A stretch of 19,115 bases of DNA from a virus (taxonomy: Duplodnaviria > Heunggongvirae > Uroviricota > Caudoviricetes): IMG/VR virus record IMGVR_UViG_2617270954_000002; one strand, 5' to 3'. A model generated the notes under the pieces. That model was not told the DNA's origin and searched no databases. It was given only the letters and a program-made list of their open reading frames with translations. Position 1 is the first letter of the stretch; every line of letters starts with the position of its first letter. Below, in pieces: positions 1-16,124 of the stretch. A program made the translations under genes and the position numbers.

Positions 1-195
1 GGTTACGGGGCGGCGACCTCGCGGTTTTTCACTATTTATGAAAATTTTTCAGGGAAAATCGTGTCGGTACTTCTCGAATATAACTTTTTGTTTTTTTTAA
101 TATTACATCCGTAAAGGTCCGACATGAAAGTGTCCGAAAATGCCTTTTTCTGGCGTTTTCATGTCGGGCCTTGTATTTGATAATGGGTTGTTTTC
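1..195 (+). other. cos: cos region: cosN (cohesive-end sequence GGGCGGCGACCT at 8-19) followed by cosB-like terminase binding region
   Basis: Bases 8-60 read GGGCGGCGACCTCGCGG..TATTTATGAAAATTTT, matching my recollection of the lambda left end; Nu1 starts about 190 bp downstream, the same spacing as lambda. Three copies of a TCRTGTCGG core sit at 59-67 (direct), 119-127 (inverted) and 159-167 (direct). Confidence 0.7.
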
Positions 196-744
196 ATGAA
201 GGTTAATAAAAAGAGGCTTGCCGAAATTTTCAACGTGGACCCGCGGACGATTGAACGCTGGCAGTCTCAGGGACTCCCTTGCGCCTCCAAAGGTAGTAAG
301 GGCATTGAATCTGTATTTGATACTGCCATGGCAATTCAGTGGTATGCGCAGAGGGAAACTGATATCGAAAACGAAAAGCTCCGCAAAGAACTGGACGATT
401 TGCGTGCGGCAGCGGAGTCAGATTTACAACCCGGCACCATTGACTATGAACGCTACCGGCTCACAAAAGCGCAGGCAGATGCGCAGGAACTGAAAAATGC
501 CCGTGAAGACGGAGTAGTGCTGGAAACTGAACTGTTTACCTTCATTCTGCAACGTGTGGCACAGGAGATTTCGGGGATACTTGTGCGTGTGCCGTTGACA
601 TTACAGCGTAAATATCCGGACATTTCACCATCACACCTTGATGTGGTGAAAACTGAAATCGCGAAAGCCTCCAATGTTGCAGCTAAGGCCGGTGAAAACG
701 TGGGCGGGTGGATCGATGATTTCAGACGCGCAGAAGGCAGCTAA
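196..744 (+). CDS. Nu1: terminase small subunit (gpNu1-like), N-terminal winged-HTH DNA-binding domain
   Basis: 182 aa ORF; [24 protein letters not shown] and ..[28 protein letters not shown] recalled as closely matching lambda gpNu1; sits directly after cos. Confidence 0.9.
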
Positions 745-2644
745 TGCAGCCGGTGCGATAGCTACAGGGCTTTTATCTCTCATTATTCCTGTTCCACTGA
801 CGACAGTTCAGTGGGCCAATAAACATTATTACCTTCCTAAAGAGTCGTCTTATACCCCCGGGCGGTGGGAAACACTGCCGTTTCAGGTTGGCATCATGAA
901 CTGTATGGGCAACGATCTGATTCGCACGGTTAACCTGATTAAATCTGCCCGTGTTGGTTATACAAAGATGTTGCTGGGAGTGGAGGCTTATTTTATTGAG
1001 CATAAATCACGCAACAGCCTTCTTTTTCAGCCCACGGATTCTGCTGCTGAAGATTTTATGAAATCTCATGTGGAACCCACGATCAGGGATGTGCCGGTTT
1101 TACTCGATCTTGCACCGTGGTTTGGGCGTAAACATCGTGATAATACCCTCACGCTGAAACGTTTTTCATCCGGTGTGGGGTTCTGGTGTCTGGGTGGTGC
1201 GGCAGCAAAAAACTACCGTGAAAAATCCGTGGATGTGGTCTGTTATGACGAGCTTTCCTCGTTCGAACCGGATGTCGAAAAAGAGGGTTCGCCAACCCTG
1301 CTTGGGGATAAACGTATTGAGGGCTCTGTATGGCCCAAATCCATTCGCGGCTCGACGCCTAAAATCAAAGGCACCTGCCAGATCGAAAAAGCGGCCAACG
1401 AGTCGGCGCATTTCATGCGTTTTTATGTGCCCTGCCCACACTGTGGGGAGGAGCAGTATCTGAAATTTGGCGATGAATCCACGCCTTTTGGCCTTAAATG
1501 GGAGAAGGACAGCCCCGAAAGCGTTTTCTACCTCTGTGAACATCATGGCTGCGTGATCCATCAGTCTGAGCTTGACCAGAGCAACGGGCGGTGGATCTGT
1601 GAAAACACGGGGATGTGGACCCGTGACGGTCTGACGTTTTTCAGCGCCGCGGATAATGAAATTCCGCCGCCGCGCTCCATCACGTTCCATATCTGGACGG
1701 CGTACAGTCCGTTCACCACCTGGGTACAGATAGTCTATGACTGGCTGGATGCACTGAAAGATCCCAACGGCCTGAAAACCTTTGTGAACACCACGCTGGG
1801 CGAGACCTGGGAAGAGGCCGTGGGCGAAAAACTCGATCACCAGGTACTGATGGATAAGGTCGTGCATTACACGGCGGCGGTGCCAGCCCGGGTGGTTTAT
1901 CTGACGGCGGGCATTGACTCGCAGCGAAACCGTTTTGAGATGTATGTCTGGGGATGGGCTCCGGGAGAGGAAGCCTTTCTGGTGGATAAAATCATCATTA
2001 TGGGGCGTCCCGATGAGGAAGAGACGCTGTTACGTTTGGATGCGGCGATCAACAAAAAATACTGCCATGCAGACGGAACCGAAATGACCATTTCCCGTGT
2101 CTGCTGGGACACCGGGGGGATCGATGGTGAAATTGTCTATCAGAGGTCAAAAAAACACGGTGTTTTCCGGGTGCTGCCGGTAAAAGGCGCATCTGTCTAT
2201 GGCAAGCCGGTGATCACCATGCCGAAAACCCGCAATCAGCGGGGCGTGTATCTGTGTGAAGTGGGGACGGACACCGCAAAAGAAATTCTCTATGCCCGTA
2301 TGAAAGCCGATCCCACGCCTGCGGATGAAGCCACGTCGTATGCCATCCGTTTTCCTGATGATCCGGAGATTTTTTCGCAGACAGAGGCGCAGCAACTGGT
2401 GGCGGAAGAGCTTGTGGAGAAGTGGGAAAAAGGAAAGATGCGTCTGCTGTGGGATAACAAAAAGCGGCGTAACGAAGCGCTGGACTGCCTGGTGTATGCC
2501 TATGCGGCATTACGTGTGTCCGTGCAACGCTGGCAGCTTGATCTGGCTGTACTGGCAAAATCCCGGGAAGAAGAGACGACCCGGCCAACCCTTAAAGAAC
2601 TGGCAGCGAAGCTGTCCGGAGGAGTGAATGGTTACAGTCGCTGA
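716..2644 (+). CDS. A: terminase large subunit (gpA-like; ATPase/endonuclease)
   Basis: ORF 674..2644 aligns along its length with recalled lambda gpA (YYLPKES.[12 protein letters not shown], [28 protein letters not shown]). Start placed at the in-frame ATG at 716, which overlaps the Nu1 3' end as in lambda; ATG 674 is the alternative. Confidence 0.88.
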
Positions 2645-2834
2645 ACTACAGGCGCTGCGTCAGGCGCGCCTTGATTTATTAACCGGTAAACGGGTGGTGT
2701 CTGTCCAGAAAGATGGTCGCAGAATTGAATATACGGCGGCTTCTCTGGATGAGCTTAACCGGGCGATCAATGATGCGGAGTCGGTACTGGGGACAACCCG
2801 ACGTCGCCGTCGTCCGCTGGGAGTGAGGTTATGA
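2628..2834 (+). CDS. W: head-tail joining protein gpW-like
   Basis: 68 aa, same length as lambda gpW, with motif LLTGKRVVSVQKDGRRIEYTAAS; overlaps the A stop and the B start (ATGA). Confidence 0.85.
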   Translation: MVTVAELQALRQARLDLLTGKRVVSVQKDGRRIEYTAASLDELNRAINDAESVLGTTRRRRRPLGVRL

Positions 2835-4423
2835 AACGAACGCCTGTCCTGATTGATGTGAACGGCGTTCCGCTTCGTGAGAGTCTCAGCTACAACGGGG
2901 GCGGCGCAGGATTTGGCGGGCAAATGGCTGAGTGGTTGCCACCGGCGCAGAGTGCCGATGCAGCCCTGCTGCCCGCGTTGCGTCTGGGGAATGCCCGGGC
3001 AGATGATCTGGTGCGCAATAACGGAATAGCGGCCAATGCGGTGGCCCTGCATAAGGATCACATTGTCGGGCATATGTTTCTGATTAGCTACCGTCCGAAC
3101 TGGCGCTGGCTGGGGATGCGGGAGACCGCGGCAAAAAGTTTTGTCGATGAGGTGGAGGCGGCCTGGTCAGAATACGCAGAAGGGATGTTTGGTGAGATCG
3201 ACGTGGAAGGGAAACGCACGTTTACGGAATTTATCCGTGAAGGTGTGGGCGTTCATGCGTTTAACGGCGAAATCTTTGTGCAGCCGGTCTGGGATACGGA
3301 GAGCACGCAACTGTTTCGTACGCGTTTTAAAGCCGTGAGTCCGAAACGGGTGGACACGCCAGGACACGGTATGGGGAACCGTTTTCTGCGGGCCGGTGTG
3401 GAGGTCGATCGATATGGTCGTGCCGTTGCGTACCATATCTGTGAGGATGATTTTCCTCGCTCCGGGAGTGGACGATGGGAACGGATCCCGCGTGAACTTC
3501 CCACCGGGCGTCCGGCCATGCTGCATATTTTCGAGCCGGTGGAGGACGGGCAGACCCGTGGAGCCAATCAGTTTTACAGCGTAATGGAACGGCTGAAGAT
3601 GCTCGATTCCCTGCAGGCAACACAGCTTCAGTCGGCCATAGTGAAGGCGATGTATGCAGCGACGATTGAAAGTGACCTTGATACCGAAAAGGCCTTTGAA
3701 TATATCGCCGGTGCGCCGCAGGGGCAGAAGGATAATCCGCTTATTAATATTCTGGATAAGTTCTCCACCTGGTATGACACGAATAGCGTGACGCTGGGCG
3801 GTGTCAAAATTCCGCACCTTTTCCCCGGTGATGATCTGAAACTTCAGACCGCGCAGGATTCAGACAATGGATTTTCGGCGCTTGAACAGGCGCTGCTGCG
3901 GTATATCGCCGCCGGTCTTGGCGTTTCCTACGAACAGTTGTCCCGTGATTACTCGAAGGTCAGTTATTCAAGTGCCCGCGCATCCGCCAATGAGTCGTGG
4001 CGCTATTTTATGGGGCGGCGAAAATTTATTGCGTCCCGGCTGGCCACGCAGATGTTTTCCTGCTGGCTGGAAGAGGCACTTCTTCGGGGGATTATTCGTC
4101 CGCCACGGGCACGTTTTGATTTTTATCAGGCGCGTTCAGCCTGGTCACGGGCTGAGTGGATTGGTGCCGGAAGAATGGCCATTGACGGGCTCAAGGAGGT
4201 TCAGGAATCGGTGATGCGTATTGAGGCCGGACTGAGCACGTATGAGAAAGAGCTGGCGCTGATGGGCGAGGATTATCAGGACATTTTCCGCCAGCAGGTC
4301 AGGGAATCTGCAGAGCGGGAAAAAGCCGGACTCTCACGTCCGGTGTGGATAGCGCAGGCGTATCAGCAGCAGATAGCGGAGAGTCGCAGGCCGGAAGAGG
4401 AGACAACACCACGTGAGACGTAA
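2831..4423 (+). CDS. B: portal protein gpB-like
   Basis: 530 aa (lambda gpB about 533 aa); long blocks recalled as matching lambda B, e.g. FEPVEDGQTRGANQFYSVME, LLRYIAAGLGVSYEQLSR, GRMAIDGLKEVQESVM. Confidence 0.9.
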   Translation: MKRTPVLIDVNGVPLRESLSYNGGGAGFGGQMAEWLPPAQSADAALLPALRLGNARADDLVRNNGIAANAVALHKDHIVGHMFLISYRPNWRWLGMRETAAKSFVDEVEAAWSEYAEGMFGEIDVEGKRTFTEFIREGVGVHAFNGEIFVQPVWDTESTQLFRTRFKAVSPKRVDTPGHGMGNRFLRAGVEVDRYGRAVAYHICEDDFPRSGSGRWERIPRELPTGRPAMLHIFEPVEDGQTRGANQFYSVMERLKMLDSLQATQLQSAIVKAMYAATIESDLDTEKAFEYIAGAPQGQKDNPLINILDKFSTWYDTNSVTLGGVKIPHLFPGDDLKLQTAQDSDNGFSALEQALLRYIAAGLGVSYEQLSRDYSKVSYSSARASANESWRYFMGRRKFIASRLATQMFSCWLEEALLRGIIRPPRARFDFYQARSAWSRAEWIGAGRMAIDGLKEVQESVMRIEAGLSTYEKELALMGEDYQDIFRQQVRESAEREKAGLSRPVWIAQAYQQQIAESRRPEEETTPRET

Positions 4424-5918
4424 TCTTTCACACATTATTGCAGCAGCATTCAATGAACCGCTGCTTCTGGAGCCCGCCTATGCGCGGGTTTTCTTTTGCG
4501 CGCTCGGGCGCGAGATGGGGGCAGCAAGTCTTTCGGTACCACAACAGCAGGTACAGTTTGATGCTCCCGGAATGCTGGCTGAAACGGACGAGTACATGGC
4601 CGGAGGTAAACGACCGGCCCGTGTTTACCGGGTGGTGAACGGTATTGCTGTACTGCCGGTGACAGGCACGCTGGTGCACCGGCTGGGCGGTATGCGGCCA
4701 TTTTCCGGAATGACAGGCTATGACGGCATTGTCGCCTGTCTTCAGCAGGCAATGGCAGATAGCCAGGTGCGGGGCGTACTGCTGGACATTGACAGTCCGG
4801 GCGGGCAGGCCGCCGGTGCGTTTGACTGTGCTGACATGATTTACCGCCTCCGTCAGCAGAAGCCGGTCTGGGCACTGTGCAATGACACGGCCTGTTCTGC
4901 AGCCATGCTGCTGGCGTCGGCCTGCTCCCGACGGCTGGTTACCCAGACATCCCGTATCGGCTCCATTGGTGTGATGATGAGCCATGTCAGCTATGCCGGT
5001 AATCTGGCGCAGGCCGGTGTGGATATCACGCTGATTTACTCAGGGGCGCACAAGGTGGATGGCAATCAGTTTGAAGTCTTACCGGAAGAGGTGCGTCAGG
5101 ACATGCAGCAGCGGATTGATGCGGCGCGCCGGATGTTTGCCGAAAAAGTGGCGATGTATACCGGTCTGTCTGTTGATGCAGTCACGGGAACAGAGGCCGC
5201 CGTTTTTGAAGGTCAGTCCGGCATTGAGGCCGGGCTGGCGGATGAATTAATCAATGCGTCGGATGCCATCAGTGTGATGGCCACGGCGCTGAACAGTAAT
5301 GTCAGAGGAGGCACTATGCCGCAATTAACTGCAACGGAAGCTGCCGCGCAGGAGAACCAGCGAGTGATGGGGATCCTGACGTGTCAGGAAGCGAAAGGAC
5401 GTGAACACCTTGCCACGATGCTGGCAGGACAACAGGGCATGAGCGTTGAACAGGCCCGGGCGATTCTGACCGCGGCAGCACCACAGCAGCCGGTGGCATC
5501 CACGCAGAGTGAAGCCGATCGCATTATGGCGTGTGAAGAGGCTAAAGGTCGTGAACAACTGGCGGCAACGCTGGCGGCGATGCCGGAGATGACGGTGGAA
5601 AAAGCCCGCCCGATCTTGGCTGCCTCACCGCAGGCGGATGCCGGGCCCTCACTTCGTGATCAGATCATGGCCCTGGATGAGGCAAAAGGGGCAGAAGCGC
5701 AGGCTGAAAAACTGGCGGCGTTTCCCGGAATGACGGTGGAGGCTGCCCGCGACATTCTGTCCTCATCGCCGGATAAAGCAGAACCGGTCTCTGCATCCAC
5801 AACTGCCCTGTTTGAACATTTCATGGCGAATCATTCACCGGCAGCGGTGCGGGGTGGCGTGTCACAGACGTCAGCAGACGGTGATGCGGACGTGAAAATG
5901 CTCATGGCCATGCCATGA
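4413..5918 (+). CDS. C: prohead protease/scaffold protein gpC-like (S49/ClpP-type fold), C-terminal scaffold domain
   Basis: 501 aa; N-terminal FNEPLLLEPAYARVFFCAL and the VWALCND..SAA..LASA / TSRIGSIGVMM region match recalled lambda gpC; overlaps the B stop. Confidence 0.85.
   Translation: MRRNLSHIIAAAFNEPLLLEPAYARVFFCALGREMGAASLSVPQQQVQFDAPGMLAETDEYMAGGKRPARVYRVVNGIAVLPVTGTLVHRLGGMRPFSGMTGYDGIVACLQQAMADSQVRGVLLDIDSPGGQAAGAFDCADMIYRLRQQKPVWALCNDTACSAAMLLASACSRRLVTQTSRIGSIGVMMSHVSYAGNLAQAGVDITLIYSGAHKVDGNQFEVLPEEVRQDMQQRIDAARRMFAEKVAMYTGLSVDAVTGTEAAVFEGQSGIEAGLADELINASDAISVMATALNSNVRGGTMPQLTATEAAAQENQRVMGILTCQEAKGREHLATMLAGQQGMSVEQARAILTAAAPQQPVASTQSEADRIMACEEAKGREQLAATLAAMPEMTVEKARPILAASPQADAGPSLRDQIMALDEAKGAEAQAEKLAAFPGMTVEAARDILSSSPDKAEPVSASTTALFEHFMANHSPAAVRGGVSQTSADGDADVKMLMAMP
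5316..5918 (+). CDS. Nu3: nested in-frame scaffold protein (Nu3-like), internal start within the C frame
   Basis: In-frame ATG at 5316 preceded by a strong Shine-Dalgarno (AGAGGAGG, 5304-5311); about 600 nt, close to the recalled lambda Nu3 length; shares its stop with C. Confidence 0.5.
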   Translation: MPQLTATEAAAQENQRVMGILTCQEAKGREHLATMLAGQQGMSVEQARAILTAAAPQQPVASTQSEADRIMACEEAKGREQLAATLAAMPEMTVEKARPILAASPQADAGPSLRDQIMALDEAKGAEAQAEKLAAFPGMTVEAARDILSSSPDKAEPVSASTTALFEHFMANHSPAAVRGGVSQTSADGDADVKMLMAMP

Positions 5919-5954
5919 AGTCAGTGCTGACCATCAATATGAGGTTTTAACAAA

Positions 5955-6301
5955 ATGGTGACGAAAACCATCACTGAACAGCGTGCGGAAGTACGTATTT
6001 TTGCCGGTAATGATCCGGCTCATACCGCCACAGGCAGCAGCGGGATTTCTCAGCAACACCGGCACTGACGCCCCTGATGCTGGATGAAGCCACCGGGAAA
6101 CTGGTGGTCTGGGACGGACAGAAAGCCGGTAGTGCGGCTGGCATACTGGTACTGCCGCTTGAAGGCACAGAGACGGTGCTGACCTATTACAAGTCGGGGA
6201 CCTTTGCGACGGAGGCAATCCGCTGGCCTGACAGTGTGGATGAACACAAAAAGGCAAATGCCTTTGCCGGCACAGCCCTGAGTCACGCGGCTCTGCCGTA
6301 A
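5955..6301 (+). pseudogene. D: head decoration protein gpD-like, interrupted by a frame break (candidate pseudogene or sequencing indel)
   Basis: ATG at 5955 gives MVTKTITEQRAEVRIFAGNDPAHTATGSSGISQQHRH then TGA at 6066-6068. The rest of the D homolog (LTPLMLDEATGKLVVWDG...YKSGTF...AFAGTA) continues to 6301 in the -1 frame. Lambda gpD is recalled as one continuous 110 aa protein. Confidence 0.6.
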
Positions 6302-6308
6302 CACGTTA

Positions 6309-6330
6309 TCAGGCCACCATGGTGGCCTGA
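6309..6330. repeat. 22-bp perfect palindrome (TCAGGCCACCATGGTGGCCTGA) in the D-E intergenic region
   Basis: The sequence equals its own reverse complement; it lies between the D stop (6301) and the E start (6359). Confidence 0.6.
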
Positions 6331-6358
6331 CTGATTTCTGAATGAAAGGAACTGATTT

Positions 6359-7387
6359 ATGGGATTGTTTACGACCCGCCAGTTACTCGGTTATACCGAA
6401 CAAAAAGTTAAATTCCGTGCGCTATTTCTGGAGCTGTTTTTCCGCCGTACGGTGAATTTCCACACCGAAGAGGTGATGCTGGACAAAATTACCGGAAAAA
6501 CGCCGGTGGCGGCCTATGTCTCCCCGATCGTTGAAGGAAAAGTGCTGCGCCATCGTGGTGGTGAAACCCGCGTGTTGCGTCCGGGCTACGTCAAGCCGAA
6601 ACACGAATTTAATTACCAGCAGGCGGTGGAGCGCCTTCCCGGTGAAGATCCGGCTCAGCTGAACGACCCGGCCTACCGTCGTCTGCGTATCATCACTGAT
6701 AACCTCAAACAGGAAGAGCACGCTATTGTGCAGGTGGAAGAAATGCAGGCGGTGAATGCCGTGCTGTATGGCAAATATACGATGGAAGGAGACCAGTTCG
6801 AGAAAATTGAGGTTGATTTTGGCAGATCGACGAAGAATAACATCATACAGGGTAGCGGTAAGGAGTGGTCAAAACAGGACCGTGACACGTTCGACCCGAC
6901 ATATGATATCGACCTTTTCTGTGATCAGGCCAGTGGTCTTGTGAATATTGCCATTATGGACGGTACCGTCTGGCGTCTGCTGAATGGCTTTAAGCTGTTC
7001 CGCGAAAAAATGGATACCCGTCGCGGTTCAAATTCACAACTCGAAACGGCAGTGAAAGACCTGGGCGCAGTGGTATCCTTCAAGGGGTATTACGGCGATC
7101 TGGCCATTGTGGTAGCGAAAACATCTTATGTGGCAGAGGACGGTACCGAAAAACGTTATCTGCCGGAGGGCACGCTGGTCCTGGGAAATACGGCTGCTGA
7201 GGGCATTCGTTGCTATGGTGCCATTCAGGATGCGCAGGCGTTGTCCGAAGGTGTGGTGGCCTCTTCCCGTTATCCGAAACACTGGCTGACCGTGGGCGAT
7301 CCGTCCTGTGAATTCACCATGACGCAGTCCGCTCCGCTGATGGTGCTGCCGGATCCGGATGAGTTTGTGGTGGTACAGGTGAAATAA
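6359..7387 (+). CDS. E: major capsid protein gpE-like
   Basis: 342 aa (lambda gpE 341 aa); motifs PGYVKPKHE, AIVQVEEMQAV, KLFREKMDTRRGSNSQLETAVKDLG and FTMTQSAPLMVLPDPDEFV match recalled lambda E. Confidence 0.92.
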   Translation: MGLFTTRQLLGYTEQKVKFRALFLELFFRRTVNFHTEEVMLDKITGKTPVAAYVSPIVEGKVLRHRGGETRVLRPGYVKPKHEFNYQQAVERLPGEDPAQLNDPAYRRLRIITDNLKQEEHAIVQVEEMQAVNAVLYGKYTMEGDQFEKIEVDFGRSTKNNIIQGSGKEWSKQDRDTFDPTYDIDLFCDQASGLVNIAIMDGTVWRLLNGFKLFREKMDTRRGSNSQLETAVKDLGAVVSFKGYYGDLAIVVAKTSYVAEDGTEKRYLPEGTLVLGNTAAEGIRCYGAIQDAQALSEGVVASSRYPKHWLTVGDPSCEFTMTQSAPLMVLPDPDEFVVVQVK

Positions 7388-7395
7388 TCCGTGAG

Positions 7396-7424
7396 CGGGG
7401 GCGAAATGCCCCCGTGTCTTTTTT
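7396..7424 (+). terminator. candidate rho-independent terminator/stem-loop after the capsid gene
   Basis: Stem CGGGGGC (7396-7402), loop GAAAT, stem GCCCCCG (7408-7414), followed by TGTCTTTTTT. Confidence 0.5.
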
Positions 7425-7439
7425 CACAGGGGGCTGGAT

Positions 7440-7809
7440 ATGGCAACAAAAGAAGAAAATCAGAAACGTCTTCGTGAACTGGCTGGCCTGCTGGGGCGCG
7501 AGGCGGATATGTCGGGGAGTGCTGCGGATATCGCACAGCGTGTGGCAGAGTGGGAAGAGGAGGTTTGCGCATCGGAAAATGAAATCGCAGATGTTGATGA
7601 TACCGTTTATGAGCAGGCATACAGGAACACCGGTGAGGATGACGTTCGGTATTCTGGAACGTATCATGCTTCTGAAGTGTTTTTACCTGTGCGGTGTTGA
7701 CGATGAAACAGGTGAGCCTGTTGAGCATGTTGATGCTGGCAGAGTAATTCTGATGCCCCCCTCAGTGGCAAAAGACATGGTCAGGAGCGGAATGGCCGTT
7801 TATGCGTGA
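7440..7809 (+). pseudogene. FI: DNA-packaging protein gpFI-like, split across two reading frames
   Basis: Frame of 7440 gives an N-terminus like recalled lambda FI (..LRELAGLLGRE...AADIAQRVAEWEEEV) and stops at 7698-7700. The FI-like C-terminus (LLKCFYLCGVDDETGEPV...AKDMVRSGMAVYA) is in the +1 frame, ending at 7809 and overlapping the FII start (ATGCGTGA). Break lies roughly within 7600-7650. Confidence 0.55.
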
Positions 7810-8155
7810 TTTTGAGAATTCCTTTGATGCTGCCCTTGCCGGGGTGGACAGAACGATTGTTGAAGTGATGGGGCTCTGTGCGCAGTTCACCTCGGGGGCA
7901 CAGTGTGGCAGCGAAGTTCAGGGGGTTTTTGACGATCCGGAGTCGCTGGGGTTTGCCGGTAGCGGGGTCCGTATTGAAGGAAGCAGCCCGTCATTATTTG
8001 TGCGGACGGATACGGTTCGTGCCGTGCGGCGTGGTGACACGCTGACCATTAATGGTGAGACATTCTGGGTGGATCGTGTTTCTCCGGATGACGGGGGTAG
8101 CTGTTATCTCTGGCTCAACCGTGGGCAACCACCCGCAGTTAACCGGCGACGATAA
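7802..8155 (+). CDS. FII: head-tail connector/tail attachment protein gpFII-like
   Basis: 117 aa, same as lambda FII; GVFDDPE, GVRIEGSSPSLFVRTD and FWVDRVSPDDGGSCYLWL..PPAVNRRR match recalled lambda FII. Confidence 0.88.
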   Translation: MRDFENSFDAALAGVDRTIVEVMGLCAQFTSGAQCGSEVQGVFDDPESLGFAGSGVRIEGSSPSLFVRTDTVRAVRRGDTLTINGETFWVDRVSPDDGGSCYLWLNRGQPPAVNRRR

Positions 8156-8169
8156 ACGCAGGGTGAATT

Positions 8170-8744
8170 ATGGCGATAAAAGGGCTTGATCAGGCGATTG
8201 ACAATCTGAGCCGGGTTCGTAAAAACGCCATTCCGGCTGCTTCTGCAATGACCATTAACCGCGTGGCCACAACGGCGATTAATCAGTCTTCATCACAGGT
8301 TGCCCGGGAGACAAAGGTTCGCCGGAAACTGGTTAAGGAACGGTCCAGACTGAAACGGGCGACGGTCAGAAATCCGAATGCCAGAATTATCGTTAACCGC
8401 GGTGATCTCCCTGTGATTAAGCTGGGGATCAGAATGCTGGGGCGTCGTCCGAACAGCATACTCAAAGCCGGTCAGCATCGTTATCAGCGGGCATTTATCC
8501 AGCGATTAAATAATGGGCGCTGGCATGTTATGCAACGTCTTCCCCAGGCCAGATATGACGGTGGCATGTCATGCAGCGTGTGGCCGGGAAAAATCGTTAC
8601 CCCATTGATGTGGTGAAAATTCCGATGGCGGTGCCGCTGACCACGGCGTTTAAACAGAATATTGAGCGGATACGGCGTGAGCGCCTTCCGAAAGAGCTGG
8701 GCTATGCGCTGCAGCATCAACTGAGGATGGTAATAAAGCGATGA
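8170..8744 (+). pseudogene. Z: minor tail protein gpZ-like, disrupted by a 41-bp imperfect tandem duplication causing a frame change
   Basis: N-terminus MAIKGLDQAIDNLSR..QVARETKVRRKLVKER.RLKRATV..NRGDLPVIKLG runs in the frame of 8170 through GRWHVMQR and stops at 8614-8616. A second WHVMQR, followed by the lambda-like C-terminus [54 protein letters not shown], starts at 8562 in another frame and ends at 8742-8744. Confidence 0.6.
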
Positions 8745-9136
8745 AACATACTGAACTCCGTGCAGCCGTACTGGATGCACTGGAGAAGCATGACACCGGG
8801 GCGACGTTTTTTGATGGTCGCCCCGCTGTTTTTGATGAGGCGGATTTTCCGGCAGTTGCCGTTTATCTCACCGGCGCTGAATACACGGGCGAAGAGCTGG
8901 ACAGCGATACCTGGCAGGCGGAGCTGCATATCGAAGTTTTCCTGCCTGCTCAGGTGCCGGATTCAGAGCTGGATTCGTGGATGGAGTCCCGGATTTATCC
9001 GGTGATGAGCGATATCCCGGCACTGTCAGATTTGATCACCAGTATGGTGGCCAGTGGCTATGACTATCGGCGCGACGATGATGCGGGCCTGTGGAGTTCA
9101 GCCGATCTGACTTATGTCATTACCTATGAAATGTGA
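8741..9136 (+). CDS. U: minor tail protein gpU-like (tail terminator)
   Basis: 131 aa; appears near-identical to my recollection of lambda gpU ([54 protein letters not shown]...); start overlaps the Z stop (ATGA). Confidence 0.9.
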
Positions 9137-9143
9137 GGACGCT

Positions 9144-9896
9144 ATGCCTGTACCAAATCCAGTAATGCCGGTGAAAGGTGCCGGGACCACACTGTGGGTT
9201 TATAAGGGGAACGGTGACCCTTATGCGAACCCGCTTTCAGACGTTGACTGGTCACGTCTGGCAAAAGTTAAAGACCTGACGCCGGGCGAGATGACGGCAG
9301 AATCCTACGATGATAACTACCTGGATGATGAAGACGCAGACTGGACCGCGACCGGGCAGGGGCAGAAATCTGCAGGTGATACCAGTTTTACGCTGGCCTG
9401 GAAACCGGGAGAGGAATGTCAGAAAGGGCTTATAGGCTGGTTTGAAAGCGGCGATGTCCGGGCCTATAAAATCCGTTTTCCGAATGGCACGGTGGATGTG
9501 TTTCGTGGCTGGGTCAGCAGTATCGGTAAGGCCGTGACGGCGAAAGAAGTGATCACCCGCACGGTGAAAGTCACTAACGTGGGTAAACCTTCTGTAGCGG
9601 AAGAACGCAGCAAAATTACGCCGGTCAGTGCGATTAAGGTGACGCCGACATCCGGTACGGTGGCAAAAGGGAAAACAACCACCCTGACGGTTTCTTTTGA
9701 GCCGGAAAGTGCAACCGACAAGACGTTCAGAGCGGTTTCCGCCGATCCGTCGAAAGCCACCATTAGTGTGAAAGATATGACAATTACGGTAAACGGCGTG
9801 GCGACAGGTAAGGTGCAGATCCCTGTGGTGAGCGGAAATGGTCAGTTCGCCGCAGTGGCTGAAGTCACCGTTACTGAAGCGGGCGCTGCAGGGTAA
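9144..9896 (+). CDS. V: major tail tube protein gpV-like with C-terminal Ig-like (BIG2-type) domain
   Basis: ORF 9114..9896; lambda-like start [22 protein letters not shown] at ATG 9144 with a GAGGA Shine-Dalgarno upstream; long stretches match recalled lambda V. Confidence 0.9.
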
Positions 9897-9909
9897 ACGG
9901 AGGTAATAC

Positions 9910-10341
9910 ATGTTTCTGAAAACAGAACAATTTGAATATAACGGTGTGTCTGTCACGCTTTCCGAATTGTCTGCGCTGCAGCGTATCGAGCATCTTGCCC
10001 TCCTGAAACGGCGTGCAGAACAGGCAGAATCCTGCGGCAACCTGCAGGTTAGCGTGGAAGATCTCGTCAGAACCGGCGCGTTTCTGGTGGCGATGTCCCT
10101 GTGGCATAACCATCCACAGAAAACGCAGTCACCGTCAATGAATGAGGCCGTGATGAAGATAGAGCAGGAAGTGCTCACCACCTGGCCTGCCGATGCCATT
10201 GCCCGGGCGGAAGACGTGGTGTTGTGCCTGTCCGGGATGATCGAAGCTGTTCGTCCGGATACTGATATTACTGAAGTGGCGAAAAATAACACGCTGACTG
10301 ATGATGATTTTTCTGCGGGAAAGTCTTCGACGGCGAGCTGA
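9910..10341 (+). CDS. G: tail assembly chaperone gpG-like
   Basis: 143 aa; MFLKTEQFEYNGVSVTLSELSALQRIEHLAL..TGAFLVAMSLWHNHPQKTQ matches recalled lambda G. Confidence 0.88.
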   Translation: MFLKTEQFEYNGVSVTLSELSALQRIEHLALLKRRAEQAESCGNLQVSVEDLVRTGAFLVAMSLWHNHPQKTQSPSMNEAVMKIEQEVLTTWPADAIARAEDVVLCLSGMIEAVRPDTDITEVAKNNTLTDDDFSAGKSSTAS

Positions 10342-10781
10342 ACTTTGCCCTCAGACTGGCGCGTGAGATGGGGAGACCCGACTGGCGCGCCATGCTTGCC
10401 GGGATGACATCCACCGAATATGCCGACTGGCACCGTTTTTACCGCACGCATTATTTTCAGGATACCCAGCTGGATATGCATTTTTCCGGGCTGACGTACG
10501 CTGTACTCAGCCTGTTTTTTTGCGATCCGGATATGCATCCCTCTGATTTCAGTCTGCTTGTCCCCCGGCATGAGGAAGAGCAGGTGGAGAGGCCGGATGA
10601 GGACAAAATGCTGATGCAGAAAGCGGCAGGACTTGCCGGAGGCGTCCGGTTCGGTGGGGACGGAGGGCGCGATATTTTATCGTCTGCGGATGTGGCGGAT
10701 GTCATGGTGGATGATGCCGCATTAATGATGGCTTCAGCGGGGATTCCGGGAGGTGTGAGATATGTCCCAGCCGGTTGGTGA
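9910..10781 (+). CDS. GT: tail assembly chaperone gpG-T fusion made by programmed -1 ribosomal frameshift
   Basis: Slippery heptamer GGGAAAG at 10317-10323 near the 3' end of G; the -1 frame continues VFDGELNFALRLAREMGRPDWRAMLAGMTSTEYADWHRFY... (lambda gpT-like) to the stop at 10779-10781. Confidence 0.75.
10317..10323 (+). promoter_or_regulatory. programmed -1 frameshift slippery site (G GGA AAG) for G-T
   Basis: Exact GGGAAAG heptamer in the G frame, 6 codons before the G stop; the T frame is open downstream. Confidence 0.7.
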
Positions 10782-13323
10782 TCTTGTTATTGACCTGAGT
10801 CTGGATGCTGTCCGTTTCGATGAGCAGATGAGCCGGGTAAGGCGTCATTTTTCAGGTCTGGATACCGACGCCAGAAAAACCGCCAGTGCTGTTGAACAGG
10901 GCCTGAGCCGCCAGGCGCTGGCTGCACAAAAAGCCGGGATTTCCGTCGGGCAGTATAAAGCGGCCATGCGAACCCTGCCCGCACAGTTTACGGATATCGC
11001 CACGCAGCTTGCCGGTGGTCAGAATCCCTGGTTGATCCTGCTGCAACAGGGCGGTCAGGTGAAGGACTCCTTCGGCGGGATGATCCCCATGTTCAGGGGG
11101 CTTGCCGGTGCGATCACCCTGCCGATGGTCGGGGTCACCTCGCTGGCGGTGGCGACAGGTGCGCTGGCGTACGCCTGGTACCAGGGCGACGCCACGCTTT
11201 CAGAATTTAATAAAACGCTGGTCCTTTCCGGCAATCAGGCCGGACTGACTGCCGATCGTATGCTGACGCTCTCAAGAGCCGGGCAGGCAGCAGGGCTGAC
11301 GTTTAACCAGGCGAGAGAGTCACTGGCAGCCCTGGTGAATGCCGGTGTGCGTGGTGGTGAACAGTTTGATGCCATCAACCAGAGTGTCGCGCGTTTTGCG
11401 TCTGCATCCGGTGTGGAGGTGGATAAAGTCGCTGAAGCCTTCGGGAAGCTGACCACTGACCCGACGTCGGGACTGATGGCGATGGCGCGCCAGTTCCGTA
11501 ACGTGACGGCAGAGCAGATTGCGTATGTTGCACAGCTGCAGCGTTCCGGAGACGAGGCCGGGGCATTGCAGGCGGCGAACGATATCGCCACGAAAGGCTT
11601 TGATGAGCAGACCCGTCGCCTGAAAGAAAACATGGGAACACTGGAGACCTGGGCGGATAAAACAGGGAAGGCATTCAAATCGATGTGGGATGCCATTCTG
11701 GATATCGGTCGTCCGGAATCCTCAGCGGATATGCTCGCCAGTGCGCAGAGGGCATTTGATGAGGCGGATAAAAAATGGCAGTGGTACCAGAGCCGGAGCC
11801 AGCGCCGGGGAAAGACCTCCTCTTTTCGTGCGAACCTTCAGGGGGCATGGGATGACCGGGAAAATGCCCGTCTGGGTCTGGCAGCGGCCACGCTGCAGTC
11901 GGATATGGAAAAAGCCGGTGAACTGGCGGCAAGGGACAGGGCTGAGCGTGAGTCGTCACAGCTGAAGTATACCGGAGAGGCGCAGAAGGCGTATGAGCGC
12001 CTGCAGACGCCGCTGGATAAATATACCGCCCGTCAGAAAGAGCTGAATAAGGCCCTGAAAGACGGAAAAATCCTGCAGGCGGATTACAACACGCTGATGG
12101 CGTCGGCAAAAAAGGATTATGAATCGACGCTGAAAAAGCCGTCAGGTGTGAAGGTGTCTGCCGGTGAGCGCCAGGAAGACCGGGCGCATGCAGCCCTGCT
12201 GGCGCTTGAAACCGAGCTCAGGACGCTGGAAAAACACAGCGGTGTGAATGAGAAAATCAGCCAGCAGCGCCGGGATTTATGGGAAGCGGAAAGTCAGTAT
12301 GTGGTCCTGAAAGAGGCCGCCACGAAACGGCAGTTATCTGAGCAGGAAAAATCCCTGCTGGCTCATGAGAAAGAGACGCTGGAGTACAAACGCCAGCTGG
12401 CTGAGCTGGGAGACAAGATTGAACACCAGAAGCGGCTGAATGAGCTGGCACAGCAGGCGGCGCGGTTTGAACAGCAGCAAAGCGCGAAGCAGGCGGCAAT
12501 CAGCGCAAAAGCCCGCGGCCTCACCGACCGTCAGGCGCAGCGGGAGTCGGAAGAGCAGCGCCTTCGTGAGGTGTACGGTGATAATCCGGCTGCGCTGGCG
12601 AAGGCCACATCGGCACTGAAGAACACCTGGTCTGCGGAGGAGCAGCTTCGTGGAAGCTGGATGGCCGGGATGAAGTCCGGCTGGGGAGAGTGGGCGGAAA
12701 GTGCGACGGACAGTTTTTCGCAGGTTAAAAGTGTGGCCACGCAGACCTTTGACGGTATTGCACAGAATATGGCGGCGATGCTGACCGGCAGCGAACAGAA
12801 CTGGCGGGGATTCACCCGTTCCGTGCTGTCCATGATGACAGAAATTCTGCTTAAGCAGGCAATGGTGGGGATTGTCGGGAGTATCGGCAGCGCCATTGGC
12901 GGGGCTGTTGGTGGCGGCGCATCCGCGTCAGGCGGTACAGCCATTCAGGCCGCTGCGGCGAAATTCCATTTTGCAACCGGAGGATTTACGGGAACCGGCG
13001 GCAAATATGAGCCAGCGGGGATTGTTCACCGTGGTGAATTTGTCTTCACAAAGGAGGCAACCAGCCGGATTGGCGTGGGGAATCTCTACCGGCTGATGCG
13101 CGGCTATGCCACCGGTGGTTATGTCGGTACACCGGGCAGTCTGGCTGACAGCCGGTCGCAGGCGTCCGGGACGTTTGAGCAGAATAACCATGTGGTGATT
13201 AACAACGACGGCACGAACGGGCAGATAGGTCCGGCTGCTCTGAAGGCGGTGTATGACATGGCCCGCAAGGGTGCCCGTGATGAAATTCAGACACAGATGC
13301 GTGATGGTGGACTGTTCTCCTGA
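10762..13323 (+). CDS. H: tail tape measure protein gpH-like
   Basis: 853 aa (same as recalled lambda gpH); N-terminus PVGDLVIDLSLDAVRFDEQM and C-terminal region AMVGIVGSIGSAIGGAVGGGASASGG...GTNGQIGPAALKAVYDMARKGARDEIQTQMRDGGLFS match lambda H. Confidence 0.92.
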   Translation: MSQPVGDLVIDLSLDAVRFDEQMSRVRRHFSGLDTDARKTASAVEQGLSRQALAAQKAGISVGQYKAAMRTLPAQFTDIATQLAGGQNPWLILLQQGGQVKDSFGGMIPMFRGLAGAITLPMVGVTSLAVATGALAYAWYQGDATLSEFNKTLVLSGNQAGLTADRMLTLSRAGQAAGLTFNQARESLAALVNAGVRGGEQFDAINQSVARFASASGVEVDKVAEAFGKLTTDPTSGLMAMARQFRNVTAEQIAYVAQLQRSGDEAGALQAANDIATKGFDEQTRRLKENMGTLETWADKTGKAFKSMWDAILDIGRPESSADMLASAQRAFDEADKKWQWYQSRSQRRGKTSSFRANLQGAWDDRENARLGLAAATLQSDMEKAGELAARDRAERESSQLKYTGEAQKAYERLQTPLDKYTARQKELNKALKDGKILQADYNTLMASAKKDYESTLKKPSGVKVSAGERQEDRAHAALLALETELRTLEKHSGVNEKISQQRRDLWEAESQYVVLKEAATKRQLSEQEKSLLAHEKETLEYKRQLAELGDKIEHQKRLNELAQQAARFEQQQSAKQAAISAKARGLTDRQAQRESEEQRLREVYGDNPAALAKATSALKNTWSAEEQLRGSWMAGMKSGWGEWAESATDSFSQVKSVATQTFDGIAQNMAAMLTGSEQNWRGFTRSVLSMMTEILLKQAMVGIVGSIGSAIGGAVGGGASASGGTAIQAAAAKFHFATGGFTGTGGKYEPAGIVHRGEFVFTKEATSRIGVGNLYRLMRGYATGGYVGTPGSLADSRSQASGTFEQNNHVVINNDGTNGQIGPAALKAVYDMARKGARDEIQTQMRDGGLFS

Positions 13324-13331
13324 GGTGGACG

Positions 13332-13661
13332 ATGAAAACCTTCCGCTGGAAAGTGAAACCCGGGATGGATGTGACATCGGCTCCTTCCGTCAGGGAGGTG
13401 CGCTTTGGTGATGGCTATTCCCAGCGTGCGCCTGCCGGGCTGAACGCTGACCTGAAAACGTACAGCGTGACGCTGTCTGTCTCCCGTGAGGAGGCCACGG
13501 CGCTGGAGTCGTTTCTGGCTGAGCACGGGGGCTGGAAGGCCTTTCTGTGGACGCCGCCTTATGGTTACAGGCAGATAAAGGTGACCTGCGCAAAATGGTC
13601 GTCGCAGGTCAGTATGTTGCGTGTTGGGTTCAGCGCAGAGTTTAAACAGGTGGTGAACTGA
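13332..13661 (+). CDS. M: minor tail protein gpM-like
   Basis: 109 aa, same as lambda M; position after H; sequence recalled as lambda M-like. Confidence 0.85.
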   Translation: MKTFRWKVKPGMDVTSAPSVREVRFGDGYSQRAPAGLNADLKTYSVTLSVSREEATALESFLAEHGGWKAFLWTPPYGYRQIKVTCAKWSSQVSMLRVGFSAEFKQVVN

Positions 13662-14359
13662 TGCAGGATATCCGGCAGGAAACACTGAATGAATGCACCC
13701 GTGCGGAGCAGTCGGCCAGCGTGGTGCTCTGGGAAATCGATCTGACAGAGGTCGGTGGAGAACGTTATTTTTTCTGTAATGAGCAGAACGAAAAAGGTGA
13801 GCCGGTCACCTGGCAGGGGAGGCAGTATCAGGCGTATCCCATTCAGGGGAGCGGTTTTGAACTGAATGGCAAAGGCACCAGTACGCGGCCCACGCTGGCA
13901 GTCTCTAACCTGTACGGCATGGTCACCGGTATGGTGGAAGATATGCAGAGTCTGGTCGGCGGAACGGTGGTCCGGCGTAAGGTTTACGCCCGTTTTCTGG
14001 ATGCGGTGAACTTCGTCAACGGAAACAGAGACGCCGATCCGGAGCAGGAGGTGATCAGCCGCTGGCGCATCGAGCAGTGCAGCGAACTGAGCGCGGTGAG
14101 TGCCTCCTTTGTACTGTCCACGCCGACGGAAACGGATGGCGCTGTTTTTCCGGGGCGTATCATGCTGGCCAACACCTGCACCTGGACCTATCGCGGTGAT
14201 GAGTGCGGTTATCACGGTCCGGCAGTCGCGGATGAATATGACCAGCCGACGTCCGATATCACGAAGGATAAATGCAGCAAATGCCTGAGCGGCTGTAAGT
14301 TTCGCAATAACGTCGGCAACTTTGGCGGCTTCCTTTCCATTAACAAACTTTCGCAGTAA
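13661..14359 (+). CDS. L: minor tail protein gpL-like (tail tip complex; lambda L binds an Fe-S cluster via C-terminal cysteines)
   Basis: 232 aa, same as lambda L; start overlaps the M stop (TGATG); Cys-rich C-terminus (CTWTYRGDECGY...DKCSKCLSGCKFRNN). Confidence 0.85.
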   Translation: MQDIRQETLNECTRAEQSASVVLWEIDLTEVGGERYFFCNEQNEKGEPVTWQGRQYQAYPIQGSGFELNGKGTSTRPTLAVSNLYGMVTGMVEDMQSLVGGTVVRRKVYARFLDAVNFVNGNRDADPEQEVISRWRIEQCSELSAVSASFVLSTPTETDGAVFPGRIMLANTCTWTYRGDECGYHGPAVADEYDQPTSDITKDKCSKCLSGCKFRNNVGNFGGFLSINKLSQ

Positions 14360-14363
14360 TCCC

Positions 14364-15107
14364 ATGACAGAGACAGAATCAGCGATTCTGGCGCACGCCC
14401 GGCGATGTGCGCCAGCGGAGTCGTGCGGCTTCGTGGTAAGCACGCCGGAGGGGGAAAGATATTTCCCCTGCGTGAATATCTCCGGTGAGCCGGAGGCGTA
14501 TTTCCGGATGGCTCCGGAGGACTGGCTGCAGGCAGAGATGCAGGGTGAGATTGTGGCGCTGGTCCACAGCCACCCCGGTGGTCTGCCCTGGCTGAGTGAG
14601 GCTGACCGGCGGCTGCAGGTGCAGAGCGATTTGCCGTGGTGGCTGGTCTGCCGGGGGGCGATTCACAAGTTCCGCTGTGTGCCGCATCTCACCGGGCGGC
14701 GCTTTGAGTACGGGGTGACGGACTGTTACACACTGTTCCGGGATGCTTACCATCTGGCGGGGATTGAGATGCCGGATTTTCATCGCGGGGATGACTGGTG
14801 GCGTCACGGTCAGAATCTCTATCTTGACAATATGGAGGCTACTGGTTTTTACCGTGTCGCACTGACAGAGGCGCAGCCGGGCGATGTGCTGCTGTGCTGT
14901 TTTGGTTCATCGGTGCCGAATCACGCCGCCATTTACTGCGGCGACGGTGAGCTGCTGCACCATATTCCTGAACAACTGAGTAAACGAGAGAGGTATACCG
15001 ACAAATGGCAGCGACGCACACACTCCCTCTGGCGTCACCGGGAATGGCACGCATCTGCCTTTACGGGGATTTGCAACGATTTGGCCGCCGCATCGACCTT
15101 CGAGTGA
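14364..15107 (+). CDS. K: tail tip assembly protein gpK-like (JAB/MPN metalloprotease-like plus NlpC/P60-like domains)
   Basis: ORF 14322..15107; lambda-like start MTETESAILAHARRCAPAESCGFV at ATG 14364; HSHPGG (JAMM-like) motif and a downstream Cys/His region; overlaps the I start by about 100 nt as in lambda. Confidence 0.8.
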   Translation: MTETESAILAHARRCAPAESCGFVVSTPEGERYFPCVNISGEPEAYFRMAPEDWLQAEMQGEIVALVHSHPGGLPWLSEADRRLQVQSDLPWWLVCRGAIHKFRCVPHLTGRRFEYGVTDCYTLFRDAYHLAGIEMPDFHRGDDWWRHGQNLYLDNMEATGFYRVALTEAQPGDVLLCCFGSSVPNHAAIYCGDGELLHHIPEQLSKRERYTDKWQRRTHSLWRHREWHASAFTGICNDLAAASTFE

Positions 15108-15646
15108 AAACGGGGGCTGAAGCCATCCGGGCACTGGCCACACAGCTCCCGGCGTTTCGTCAGAAACTGAGCGATGGCTGGTATCAGGTACGGATTGCCG
15201 GGCGGGATGCAGGAGAAACCGAATTATCATCCCGTCTTAATGAGCCGCTGGCAAATGGTGCCGTGATCCACATCGTGCCGCGTCTTGCGGGAGCAAAAAG
15301 TGGCGGTGTGTTTCAGGCGGTGCTGGGTGCGGCGTTGATTGCTACGGCAATCTGGATGCCGGGGATCAGTATCGCTTTCAGTGACATTCTCTTTTCAATG
15401 GGTGCGGCGATGACGCTTGGTGGTGTGGCGCAGATGCTGGCACCGAAAGCCAGAACTCCCCGTACACAGACAACGGATAACGGCAAACAGAACACCTATT
15501 TCTCCTCACTGGATAACATGGTTGCCCAGGGCAATGTCCTGCCTGTTCTGTACGGTGAAATGCGCGTGGGGTCACGTGTGGCATCTCAGGAGATCAGCAC
15601 GGCAGATGAAGGGGATGGTGGTCAGGTTGTGGTAATTGGGCGGTAA
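15005..15646 (+). CDS. I: tail tip assembly protein gpI-like
   Basis: 213 aa; YFSSLDNMVAQGNVLPVLYGEMRVGSRVASQEISTADEGDGGQVVVIGR matches the recalled lambda I C-terminus. Confidence 0.82.
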   Translation: MAATHTLPLASPGMARICLYGDLQRFGRRIDLRVKTGAEAIRALATQLPAFRQKLSDGWYQVRIAGRDAGETELSSRLNEPLANGAVIHIVPRLAGAKSGGVFQAVLGAALIATAIWMPGISIAFSDILFSMGAAMTLGGVAQMLAPKARTPRTQTTDNGKQNTYFSSLDNMVAQGNVLPVLYGEMRVGSRVASQEISTADEGDGGQVVVIGR

Positions 15647-15669
15647 TATTATTTTACTCATGTTCTAAC

Positions 15670-15700
15670 TGATTTAATATTTATATCGAACACTGATAAT
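15670..15700 (+). promoter_or_regulatory. candidate sigma70-type promoter for the lipoprotein gene (weak call)
   Basis: AT-rich stretch with a -10-like GATAAT (15695-15700) about 20 nt upstream of the ATG and weak -35-like hexamers (TGATTT/TTAATA) about 17-19 nt further upstream; no strong consensus. Confidence 0.2.
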
Positions 15701-15719
15701 TATTCTATTGGTTAGCTAT

Positions 15720-16058: not shown

Positions 16059-16082
16059 TAGTTAATCCTGTCGTAACTCATG

Positions 16083-16110
16083 AGCCGCCTTTTGGGCGGC
16101 TTTGTTGTTT
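16083..16110 (+). terminator. candidate rho-independent terminator downstream of the lipoprotein gene
   Basis: Stem AGCCGCC (16083-16089), loop TTTTG, stem GGCGGCT (16095-16101), followed by TTGTTGTTT. Confidence 0.55.
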
Positions 16111-16124
16111 ATGGAGTGTGAGGA

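What the first reader, a model, noticed from the sequence alone, without database searches (positions are those of the whole stretch)
7560..7700. Frame break in the packaging gene FI
The FI-like N-terminus is in the frame of 7440 and stops at 7698. The FI-like C-terminus, whose stop overlaps the FII start, is in the +1 frame. The switch point lies roughly within 7600-7650 and is not at an obvious homopolymer. Taken together with the D and Z lesions, three hits in late structural genes point to a decaying cryptic prophage; if they are artefacts, the assembly has a notable indel rate.
Basis: partly seen in the sequence, partly recalled or inferred. Interest (0 to 1): 0.45.

Follow-up and report, generated by a model that had tools for sequence, protein, structure and literature searches.

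The report
Assembly-made frameshift in prophage FI
The broken FI packaging gene is really there in the deposited sequence, but it sits at a spot where the assembler appears to have blended two nearly identical prophages of the same bacterium, so it is most likely an assembly artefact and not a sign of a decaying virus.

Summary
The frame break is confirmed. FI starts at 7440 and stops at 7698-7700. Its C-terminal part continues in the +1 frame to 7807-7809, overlapping the FII start at 7802. Intact relatives have one 369-nt (122-aa) ORF; the window has one surplus base within 7642-7647.

The window is the whole 19,115-bp contig JNPZ01000054.1 of the draft assembly of E. coli 2-177-06_S4_C3. 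Complete genomes such as FORC_069 carry two lambdoid prophages, F1 and F2, both with intact FI. Over window 1-17000, all 359 differences from F1 match the F2 base. There are 50 F1/F2 switches in the first 7.8 kb.

Only four private changes remain: the D, FI and Z frame breaks and one nonsense change in H. Each frame break lies where F1 and F2 differ in a way that is not colinear:
- F1: GATGACGTT-GG
- F2: GATG-CTTTCGG
- window: GATGACGTTCGG

The 86-aa product occurs on no other contig. A contig from a similarly named strain shows a base-by-base blended, multiply frameshifted FI.

Verdict: probably a collapsed-paralogue consensus chimera (about 0.85), not prophage decay. Reads were not available, so this is not proven. 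Interest is low.

The parts
7440..7700 (+). FI N-terminal reading frame (86 aa), ending at the out-of-frame stop TGA 7698-7700
   Evidence: Pfam PF14000 positions 1-46 of 131; called as a gene on the source contig
7642..7647 (+). Site of the surplus nucleotide. ACGTT is the prophage-F1 allele and the following C is the prophage-F2 allele. Removing A7642 or C7647 restores a 122-aa FI.
   Evidence: alignments; repair test
7648..7809 (+). FI C-terminal part in the +1 frame (GILERIM...AVYA). Its stop TGA 7807-7809 overlaps the FII start.
7571..7667 (+). F2-type markers (7571, 7608, 7621, 7626 and 7667) flanking the 5-nt F1-type patch. The patch can be at most about 20-40 nt long.
7802..8155 (+). 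FII head-tail joining gene, intact. Its exact protein is seen on more than 1000 contigs.
6049..6053 (+). Companion lesion in D (head decoration): net -1 inside the F1 TCT / F2 CAG three-base difference
8559..8579 (+). Companion lesion in Z. The F1 long allele is joined out of register to the F2 short allele, repeating the motif GGCATGTYATGCARCGT (net -1).
1..9283 (+). Blended stretch of the contig. It is a fine F1/F2 mosaic up to 7783 (51 tracts), then pure F1 at 7784-8558 and pure F2 at 8580-9275.
7395..7425 (+). Terminator-like hairpin plus T-run between the E stop and the FI start. This is context only and is not part of the lesion.
   Evidence: conserved in relatives

Best explanation
The frame break is an assembly artefact. 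Strain 2-177-06_S4_C3 most likely carries two paralogous lambdoid prophages, equivalents of F1 and F2 of E. coli FORC_069 and the O104:H4 strains. Their head genes are about 96% identical.

The short-read assembly collapsed them into one 19-kb contig. Its consensus flips between the two copies every few tens to hundreds of bases. Where the copies differ only by substitutions, the result is a harmless mosaic. Where an aligner represents the difference with gaps, taking some columns from one copy and some from the other changes the length.

In FI, F1 has GAT GAC GTT GGT (..DDVG..) and F2 has GAT GCT TTC GGT (..DAFG..). Aligned as GATGACGTT-GG over GATG-CTTTCGG, a mixed consensus gives GATGACGTTCGG, which is exactly the window and one base too long. 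The same mechanism explains the D lesion and the out-of-register Z junction.

What is shown:
- the decomposition of the window into F1 and F2;
- the position of the lesions at non-colinear differences;
- the uniqueness of the allele.

What is inferred:
- that this strain holds both prophages;
- that the assembler's consensus step did the blending.

In the cell, both FI genes are probably intact (122 aa).
For: 1. The window is a complete stand-alone contig of a draft assembly.
2. FORC_069 and the O104:H4 genomes hold two FI-bearing prophages, both annotated with intact 369-nt FI.
3. In a three-way alignment over window 1-17000, 359 sites that differ from F1 all equal F2. The only private differences are the three frame breaks and one substitution at 13321.
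4. There are 50 switches in 7.8 kb with site shares of 173 to 135. Seven tracts cannot be longer than 50 nt and 35 of 51 cannot be longer than 200 nt, which is the scale of 100-nt reads.
5. The FI, D and Z lesions each lie exactly at a multi-base or indel difference between F1 and F2. Only 1.4% of D positions and 1.6% of FI positions are such sites, giving a joint chance of about 2e-4 for random indels.
6. The 86-aa product is on one contig only in the whole collection. The 32-mer across the site has 0 hits in the GTDB representative genomes and the JGI metagenomes. No complete E. coli genome matches the 100 nt around it at 100%.
7. Proteins from blended stretches (A, C, E, V) are unique to this contig. 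Those from unblended stretches (Nu1, B, FII, U, G, L, K) are on 112 to more than 1000 contigs. H, from the unblended stretch, is also unique, because of its private nonsense change.
8. Positive control: contig L012, from a strain with the same naming scheme (3-475-03_S3_C2), has an FI that alternates every few bases between two roughly 70%-identical alleles. It has several frameshifts and a broken FII, which recombination cannot produce.
Against: - No reads and no other contigs of this assembly could be examined. The presence of both prophages in this strain, and about 2x coverage of the contig, are therefore inferred.
- The assembler used for this record could not be verified. Only two papers from one sequencing centre were found, which used Celera Assembler and MaSuRCA on Illumina reads (PMC4462620, PMC6060285). 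The link of this strain to that centre rests on my memory of the naming scheme.
- Stretches at 13001-14500 and 16501-17000, where F1 and F2 are also only 3-6% apart, are pure F1 in the window. The blending model explains this only by assuming that flanking divergent segments let the assembler separate the copies there.
- The nonsense change at 13321 is not explained by blending.
Confidence: 0.85

Rival explanations
1. The lesion is a genuine pseudogene. The strain carries a real, defective prophage in which FI, D and Z were inactivated by indels (decay of a cryptic prophage). This may have followed real gene conversion between two co-resident prophages.
For: The sequence as deposited has three frame breaks and one premature stop in late genes. 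Cryptic prophages with such lesions are common in E. coli (general knowledge). Recombination between co-resident lambdoid prophages is known, and the mosaic pattern alone cannot say which of three sequences is the recombinant.
Against: - There are no private substitutions in 17 kb apart from one, against three private indels. That is the opposite of a normal mutation spectrum.
- All three indels coincide with non-colinear F1/F2 differences.
- In-register heteroduplex repair or crossover between GACGTT and GCTTTC cannot change length.
- There are 50 switches in 7.8 kb, with tracts that cannot exceed 11-50 nt.
- The allele is seen on one contig only.
- A similarly named strain's contig shows an impossible base-by-base blend.
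Confidence: 0.1
2. The lesion is a random sequencing or base-calling indel error in an otherwise correctly assembled single prophage.
Against: The site is not a homopolymer. A random error would not fall on the one F1/F2 complex difference in FI, nor be flanked by a 5-nt patch of the other allele. It would also not explain the 359-site mosaic or the 21-nt out-of-register Z junction.
Confidence: 0.03
3. FI is made by a programmed +1 ribosomal frameshift that produces full-length protein from two frames.
For: Both frames are open across the junction, and the +1 frame is stop-free from 7414 to 7809. The same operon uses a programmed -1 shift in G/G-T, with GGGAAAG at 10317.
Against: All relatives, including both parental alleles, encode FI as one continuous 122-aa ORF. 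The two-frame arrangement is seen on one contig only. No slippery or stop-codon shift site is evident at 7640-7700 by eye; this was not searched systematically. The open +1 frame is also present in the intact alleles and so is incidental.
Confidence: 0.01

Closest known systems
Collapsed-repeat (paralogue) consensus chimeras in short-read draft assemblies
   Same: The contig is a stand-alone repeat contig. It is a fine mosaic of two paralogous copies known to co-reside in related genomes. Length errors occur exactly where the copies are not colinear. The resulting hybrid proteins are found nowhere else.
   Different: No read-level evidence could be obtained (double coverage, two haplotypes in the pile-up). 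The assembler used for this record is not documented in anything I could read.
Phage lambda / phage 21 DNA-packaging protein FI (Pfam PF14000 Packaging_FI)
   Same: The gene sits between the major capsid gene E and FII, with its stop overlapping the FII start. The N-terminal part matches PF14000. The parental alleles match the full profile, positions 1-131. The DNA is 72.8% identical to phage 21 and 98.1% to Escherichia phage PhiR5_1.
   Different: In the deposited window the ORF is split at codon 69/70, so the C-terminal part is out of frame. The intact length in this lineage is 122 aa. No sequence match to a solved structure was found.
Pseudogenised late genes of cryptic E. coli prophages
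   Same: The outward appearance is the same: several late structural genes with frame breaks.
   Different: No background of private substitutions accompanies the lesions. The lesions are hybrids of two intact alleles, and the allele is not shared by any other assembly.
Programmed -1 frameshift of lambda G/G-T in the same operon
   Same: A two-frame gene in the lambda late operon; the slippery heptamer GGGAAAG is present at 10317.
   Different: The FI break is +1, has no conserved shift site, and is absent from all relatives.

Membership tests
DNA-packaging protein FI (PF14000) | Significant match to the family profile | tested here: met
   The 86-aa ORF scores 48.4 bits (cut-off 27) but covers profile positions 1-46 only. 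The parental F1 and F2 proteins cover 1-131.
DNA-packaging protein FI (PF14000) | One continuous ORF covering both N- and C-terminal parts | tested here: not met
   The ORF is split at 7642-7647 in the deposited sequence. It is restored by removing one base.
DNA-packaging protein FI (PF14000) | Position between capsid gene E and FII in a lambda-type late operon | tested here: met
   The gene order is Nu1-A-W-B-C-D-E-FI-FII-Z-U-V-G-T-H-M-L-K-I-J.
Collapsed-paralogue assembly chimera | Two parental copies exist together in one genome | tested here: inconclusive
   Both copies are present in FORC_069 and the O104:H4 complete genomes. The other contigs of this strain's assembly could not be inspected.
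Collapsed-paralogue assembly chimera | The contig is fully explained as a mixture of the parents, with no private background variation | tested here: met
   359 of 359 non-F1 substitution sites in 1-17000 equal F2. The only private differences are the 3 lesions plus 1 substitution.
Collapsed-paralogue assembly chimera | Errors are located at non-colinear differences between the parents | tested here: met
   This holds for FI, D and Z. Such sites make up 1.4-1.6% of D and FI.
Collapsed-paralogue assembly chimera | Read pile-up shows two haplotypes and about 2x depth, and no read carries the hybrid | not testable with these tools
   No reads are available.
Genuine prophage pseudogene | The lesion is reproducible in independent assemblies or isolates | tested here: not met
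   The exact product is on 1 contig. The 32-mer is absent from two public collections. There is no 100% match in 5,426 complete genomes.
Genuine prophage pseudogene | Lesions are accompanied by neutral private substitutions | tested here: not met
   There is one private substitution in 17 kb against three private indels.
Programmed ribosomal frameshift | The two-frame architecture and shift site are conserved among homologues | tested here: not met
   All homologues examined have a single ORF.

The most novel reading that the evidence does not exclude
The mosaic and its frame breaks are real. Under this reading, extensive patchy gene conversion between two co-resident lambdoid prophages in this strain produced a single hybrid, triply frameshifted head-tail module. 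That would be a snapshot of prophage inactivation by inter-prophage recombination.
Probability: 0.08. Interest if true: 0.4.

Novelty: not a real feature. Interest (0 to 1): 0.08.

Why it matters
Taken at face value, the lesion would mark this prophage as defective (no functional FI, D or Z). It would then feed pseudogene counts, prophage-viability calls and protein databases. The hybrid A, C, E and V proteins, the truncated H and the 86-aa FI fragment are already deposited as unique sequences.

Showing that the lesion is a blending artefact of two paralogous prophages is a useful caution. Stand-alone prophage contigs in short-read E. coli drafts can be chimeras, and their frameshifts and novel alleles should not be read as biology. 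There is no new biology here.

Tried and rejected
1. A three-way comparison with FORC_069 prophage 1 and phage PhiR5_1 gave a mosaic pattern. I rejected it as proof on its own, because in a three-sequence comparison the pattern is symmetric and cannot say which sequence is the recombinant. It became decisive only when the second prophage of the same genome (F2) explained every remaining difference.
2. Programmed frameshifting was rejected because the architecture is not conserved and the open +1 frame is also present in intact alleles.
3. A search for the strain or accession in the paper library found nothing, so the assembly method of this record stays unverified.
4. A sequence search of FI against solved structures gave only chance-level hits.
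5. Sibling isolates and the other contigs of the same assembly could not be reached with the look-up tools.
6. The antisense ORFs over FI (7270..7728 and 7314..7667, minus strand) were not pursued. They appear only in the mechanical ORF listing, and no gene was called there on the source contig.

Full report
**What is there**

The window is a lambda/phage-21-type late operon, Nu1-A-W-B-C-D-E-FI-FII-Z-U-V-G-T-H-M-L-K-I-J.

- An ORF at 7440..7700 encodes 86 aa beginning MATKEENQKRL. It ends at TGA 7698-7700 and matches Pfam PF14000 (Packaging_FI), but only profile positions 1-46 of 131.
- The rest of FI (GILERIMLLKCFYLCGVDDETGEPVEHVDAGRVILMPPSVAKDMVRSGMAVYA) is read in the +1 frame. It ends at TGA 7807-7809, overlapping the FII ATG at 7802.

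**Pinpointing the break**

Close relatives have one continuous FI of 369 nt (122 aa). These are E. coli JE86-ST05, SCU-171, FORC_069, O104:H4 C227-11 and phage PhiR5_1.

In the alignment the window has one surplus base within 7642-7647:

| Sequence | DNA at the site | Protein |
|---|---|---|
| window | GGATGACGTTCGGTATT | frame broken |
| allele 1 | GGATGACGTT-GGTATT | ..EDDVGILERIR.. |
| allele 2 | GGATG-CTTTCGGTATT | ..EDAFGILERIM.. |

The site is not a homopolymer. Removing either A7642 or C7647 restores a 122-aa protein.

**Where the window comes from**

The exact 86-aa product is recorded on a single contig, JNPZ01000054.1. That contig is 19,115 bp, so it is the whole window. It belongs to draft assembly GCA_000703565.1, E. 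coli 2-177-06_S4_C3.

- The 32-mer spanning the site has no exact match in the GTDB representative genomes or in the JGI metagenome contigs.
- None of 5,426 complete E. coli genomes matches the surrounding 100 nt at 100%.

**The decisive comparison**

The search showed that FORC_069 and the O104:H4 outbreak genomes carry FI at two loci, that is, two lambdoid prophages. I fetched both complete head-tail modules of FORC_069: F1 (locus L004) and F2 (locus L015). Both have an intact 369-nt FI.

A three-way alignment of the window with F1 and F2 gave these results:

- Over window 1-17000, all 359 sites that differ from F1 carry the F2 base.
- The only private differences are the D lesion (6049-6053), the surplus C in FI (7647), the Z junction (8559-8579), and one substitution at 13321.
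- In 1-7783, where F1 and F2 are about 96% identical, the window switches between them 50 times, with 173 F1-type and 135 F2-type sites.
- Seven tracts cannot be longer than 50 nt, and 35 of 51 cannot be longer than 200 nt.
- Further on, the window is pure F1 (7784-8558), then pure F2 (8580-9275), then pure F1 (9284-17000).

**The lesions are hybrids of two intact alleles**

- **FI:** the markers on both sides (7571-7626 and 7667) are F2-type. Positions 7642-7646 (ACGTT) are F1-type, and the following C is the last base of F2's CTTTC. In register, the two alleles differ by four substitutions in six bases (GACGTT versus GCTTTC). No crossover or mismatch repair between them would change the length. 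An aligner, however, writes the difference as ACGTT- over -CTTTC. Taking the first gap column from F1 and the second from F2 gives exactly the window.
- **D:** F1 has TCT where F2 has CAG, and the window has CA-.
- **Z:** F1 has a 42-nt insertion relative to F2. The window follows F1 for 20 nt into the insertion, then continues with F2 sequence restarting 21 nt upstream of the deletion point. It therefore repeats GGCATGTYATGCARCGT and comes out one base short. This is what a coordinate-based consensus would give when it hands over from one haplotype to the other inside a length difference.
- **Chance of coincidence:** only 1.4% of positions in D and 1.6% in FI lie at such multi-base differences. 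Two random indels hitting them has a probability of about 2e-4, before counting Z.

**Supporting observations**

- Proteins encoded in the blended stretches (A, C, E, V) occur on this one contig only. H, in the unblended stretch, is also unique, because of the nonsense change at 13321.
- Proteins from unblended stretches (Nu1, B, FII, U, G, L, K) occur on 112 to more than 1000 contigs.
- Contig L012, from a strain with the same naming scheme (3-475-03_S3_C2), carries an FI that alternates every few bases between an F-type allele and a roughly 70%-identical ST865-type allele. It has several frameshifts and a broken FII. No recombination process produces that, but a column-wise consensus of two alleles does.
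- Many other draft assemblies have partial FI proteins ending at residues 67-75. This suggests that contigs often break at this same variable site because two alleles co-occur.
- Two papers from one sequencing centre report assembling 100-bp Illumina reads of E. coli isolates with Celera Assembler or MaSuRCA (PMC4462620, PMC6060285). I could not link this strain to either paper. The connection rests on my memory of the naming scheme and is only circumstantial.

**Rival explanations**

- **Genuine decaying prophage (about 0.10).** This would be expected to carry private substitutions as well as indels. Here the ratio is one substitution to three indels. The indels coincide with parental differences, and the allele is a singleton. 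Real patchy gene conversion between co-resident prophages could make a mosaic, but not the out-of-register hybrids, nor 50 switches with tracts under 50 nt. I cannot exclude it without reads.
- **Random base-calling error (about 0.03).** This does not explain the location of the lesions or the mosaic.
- **Programmed +1 frameshift (about 0.01).** The two-frame arrangement is not conserved. The stop-free +1 frame (7414..7809) is also present in the intact alleles and so is incidental.

**What is not explained**

- The G-to-T change at 13321 turns GGA into TGA and ends the tape-measure gene H four codons early. It is private and is not a blend.
- Stretches at 13001-14500 and 16501-17000, where F1 and F2 are only 3-6% apart, are pure F1. 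I attribute this to flanking divergent segments separating the copies, which is an assumption.
- The J segment (17000-19115) has 53 sites private relative to F1 and F2. Its best match among 15,744 J copies is 97.1%, which suggests blending with a further J allele.

**Verdict**

The 'decaying prophage' interpretation is not supported. The most likely explanation (0.85) is a collapsed-paralogue consensus chimera, so this is not a real biological feature. Interest is low. The practical value is a warning about frameshifts and unique alleles on stand-alone prophage contigs in short-read drafts.

Noticed in passing
window 13321: This is the only private substitution in the first 17 kb. G to T turns GGA into TGA, so the tape-measure gene H ends 4 codons early (853 versus 857 aa). 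Both F1 and F2 have G here, so blending does not explain it. The exact H protein is unique to this contig.
   Followed up: partly
window 17000-19115 (J): There are 53 sites private relative to both FORC_069 prophages. The best match among 15,744 J copies in complete E. coli genomes is only 97.1%. This suggests the J end of the contig blends in at least one more J allele.
   Followed up: partly
window 6049-6053 (D) and 8559-8579 (Z): The two companion frame breaks are also hybrids of the F1 and F2 alleles. D mixes TCT and CAG to give CA-. Z joins the long allele to the short allele out of register, with a repeated 17-nt motif.
   Followed up: yes
L012 5753-6330 (JOQE01000058.1, E. coli 3-475-03_S3_C2): This second stand-alone prophage contig comes from a similarly named strain. 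Its FI alternates every few bases between two roughly 70%-identical alleles. FI is broken into 64- and 55-aa pieces, and FII is frameshifted too.
   Followed up: yes
window 7395-7425: A strong terminator-like hairpin (9-bp stem, 7 G-C pairs) followed by a T-run lies between the E stop and the FI start. It is conserved in relatives, with a C/T difference in the T-run.
   Followed up: no
window 10317: GGGAAAG lies near the end of G, upstream of T. This is the canonical lambda G/G-T programmed -1 slippery heptamer.
   Followed up: no
window 16725-18602, minus strand: There is a 625-aa ORF antisense to J. Comparable stop-free antisense stretches exist in F1 (843 codons) and F2 (733 codons), but a shorter one in PhiR5_1 (331 codons).
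   Followed up: partly
window 7414-7809: The +1 frame of the FI N-terminal half is stop-free in the intact F1 and F2 alleles as well. This is why the window shows a 131-codon GTG ORF spanning the whole gene, and it appears incidental.
   Followed up: yes
protein cluster of the 86-aa FI fragment: Many draft E. coli assemblies contain partial FI proteins ending at residues 67-75. Contigs therefore often break at this same variable site, consistent with two FI alleles co-occurring in many genomes.
   Followed up: partly
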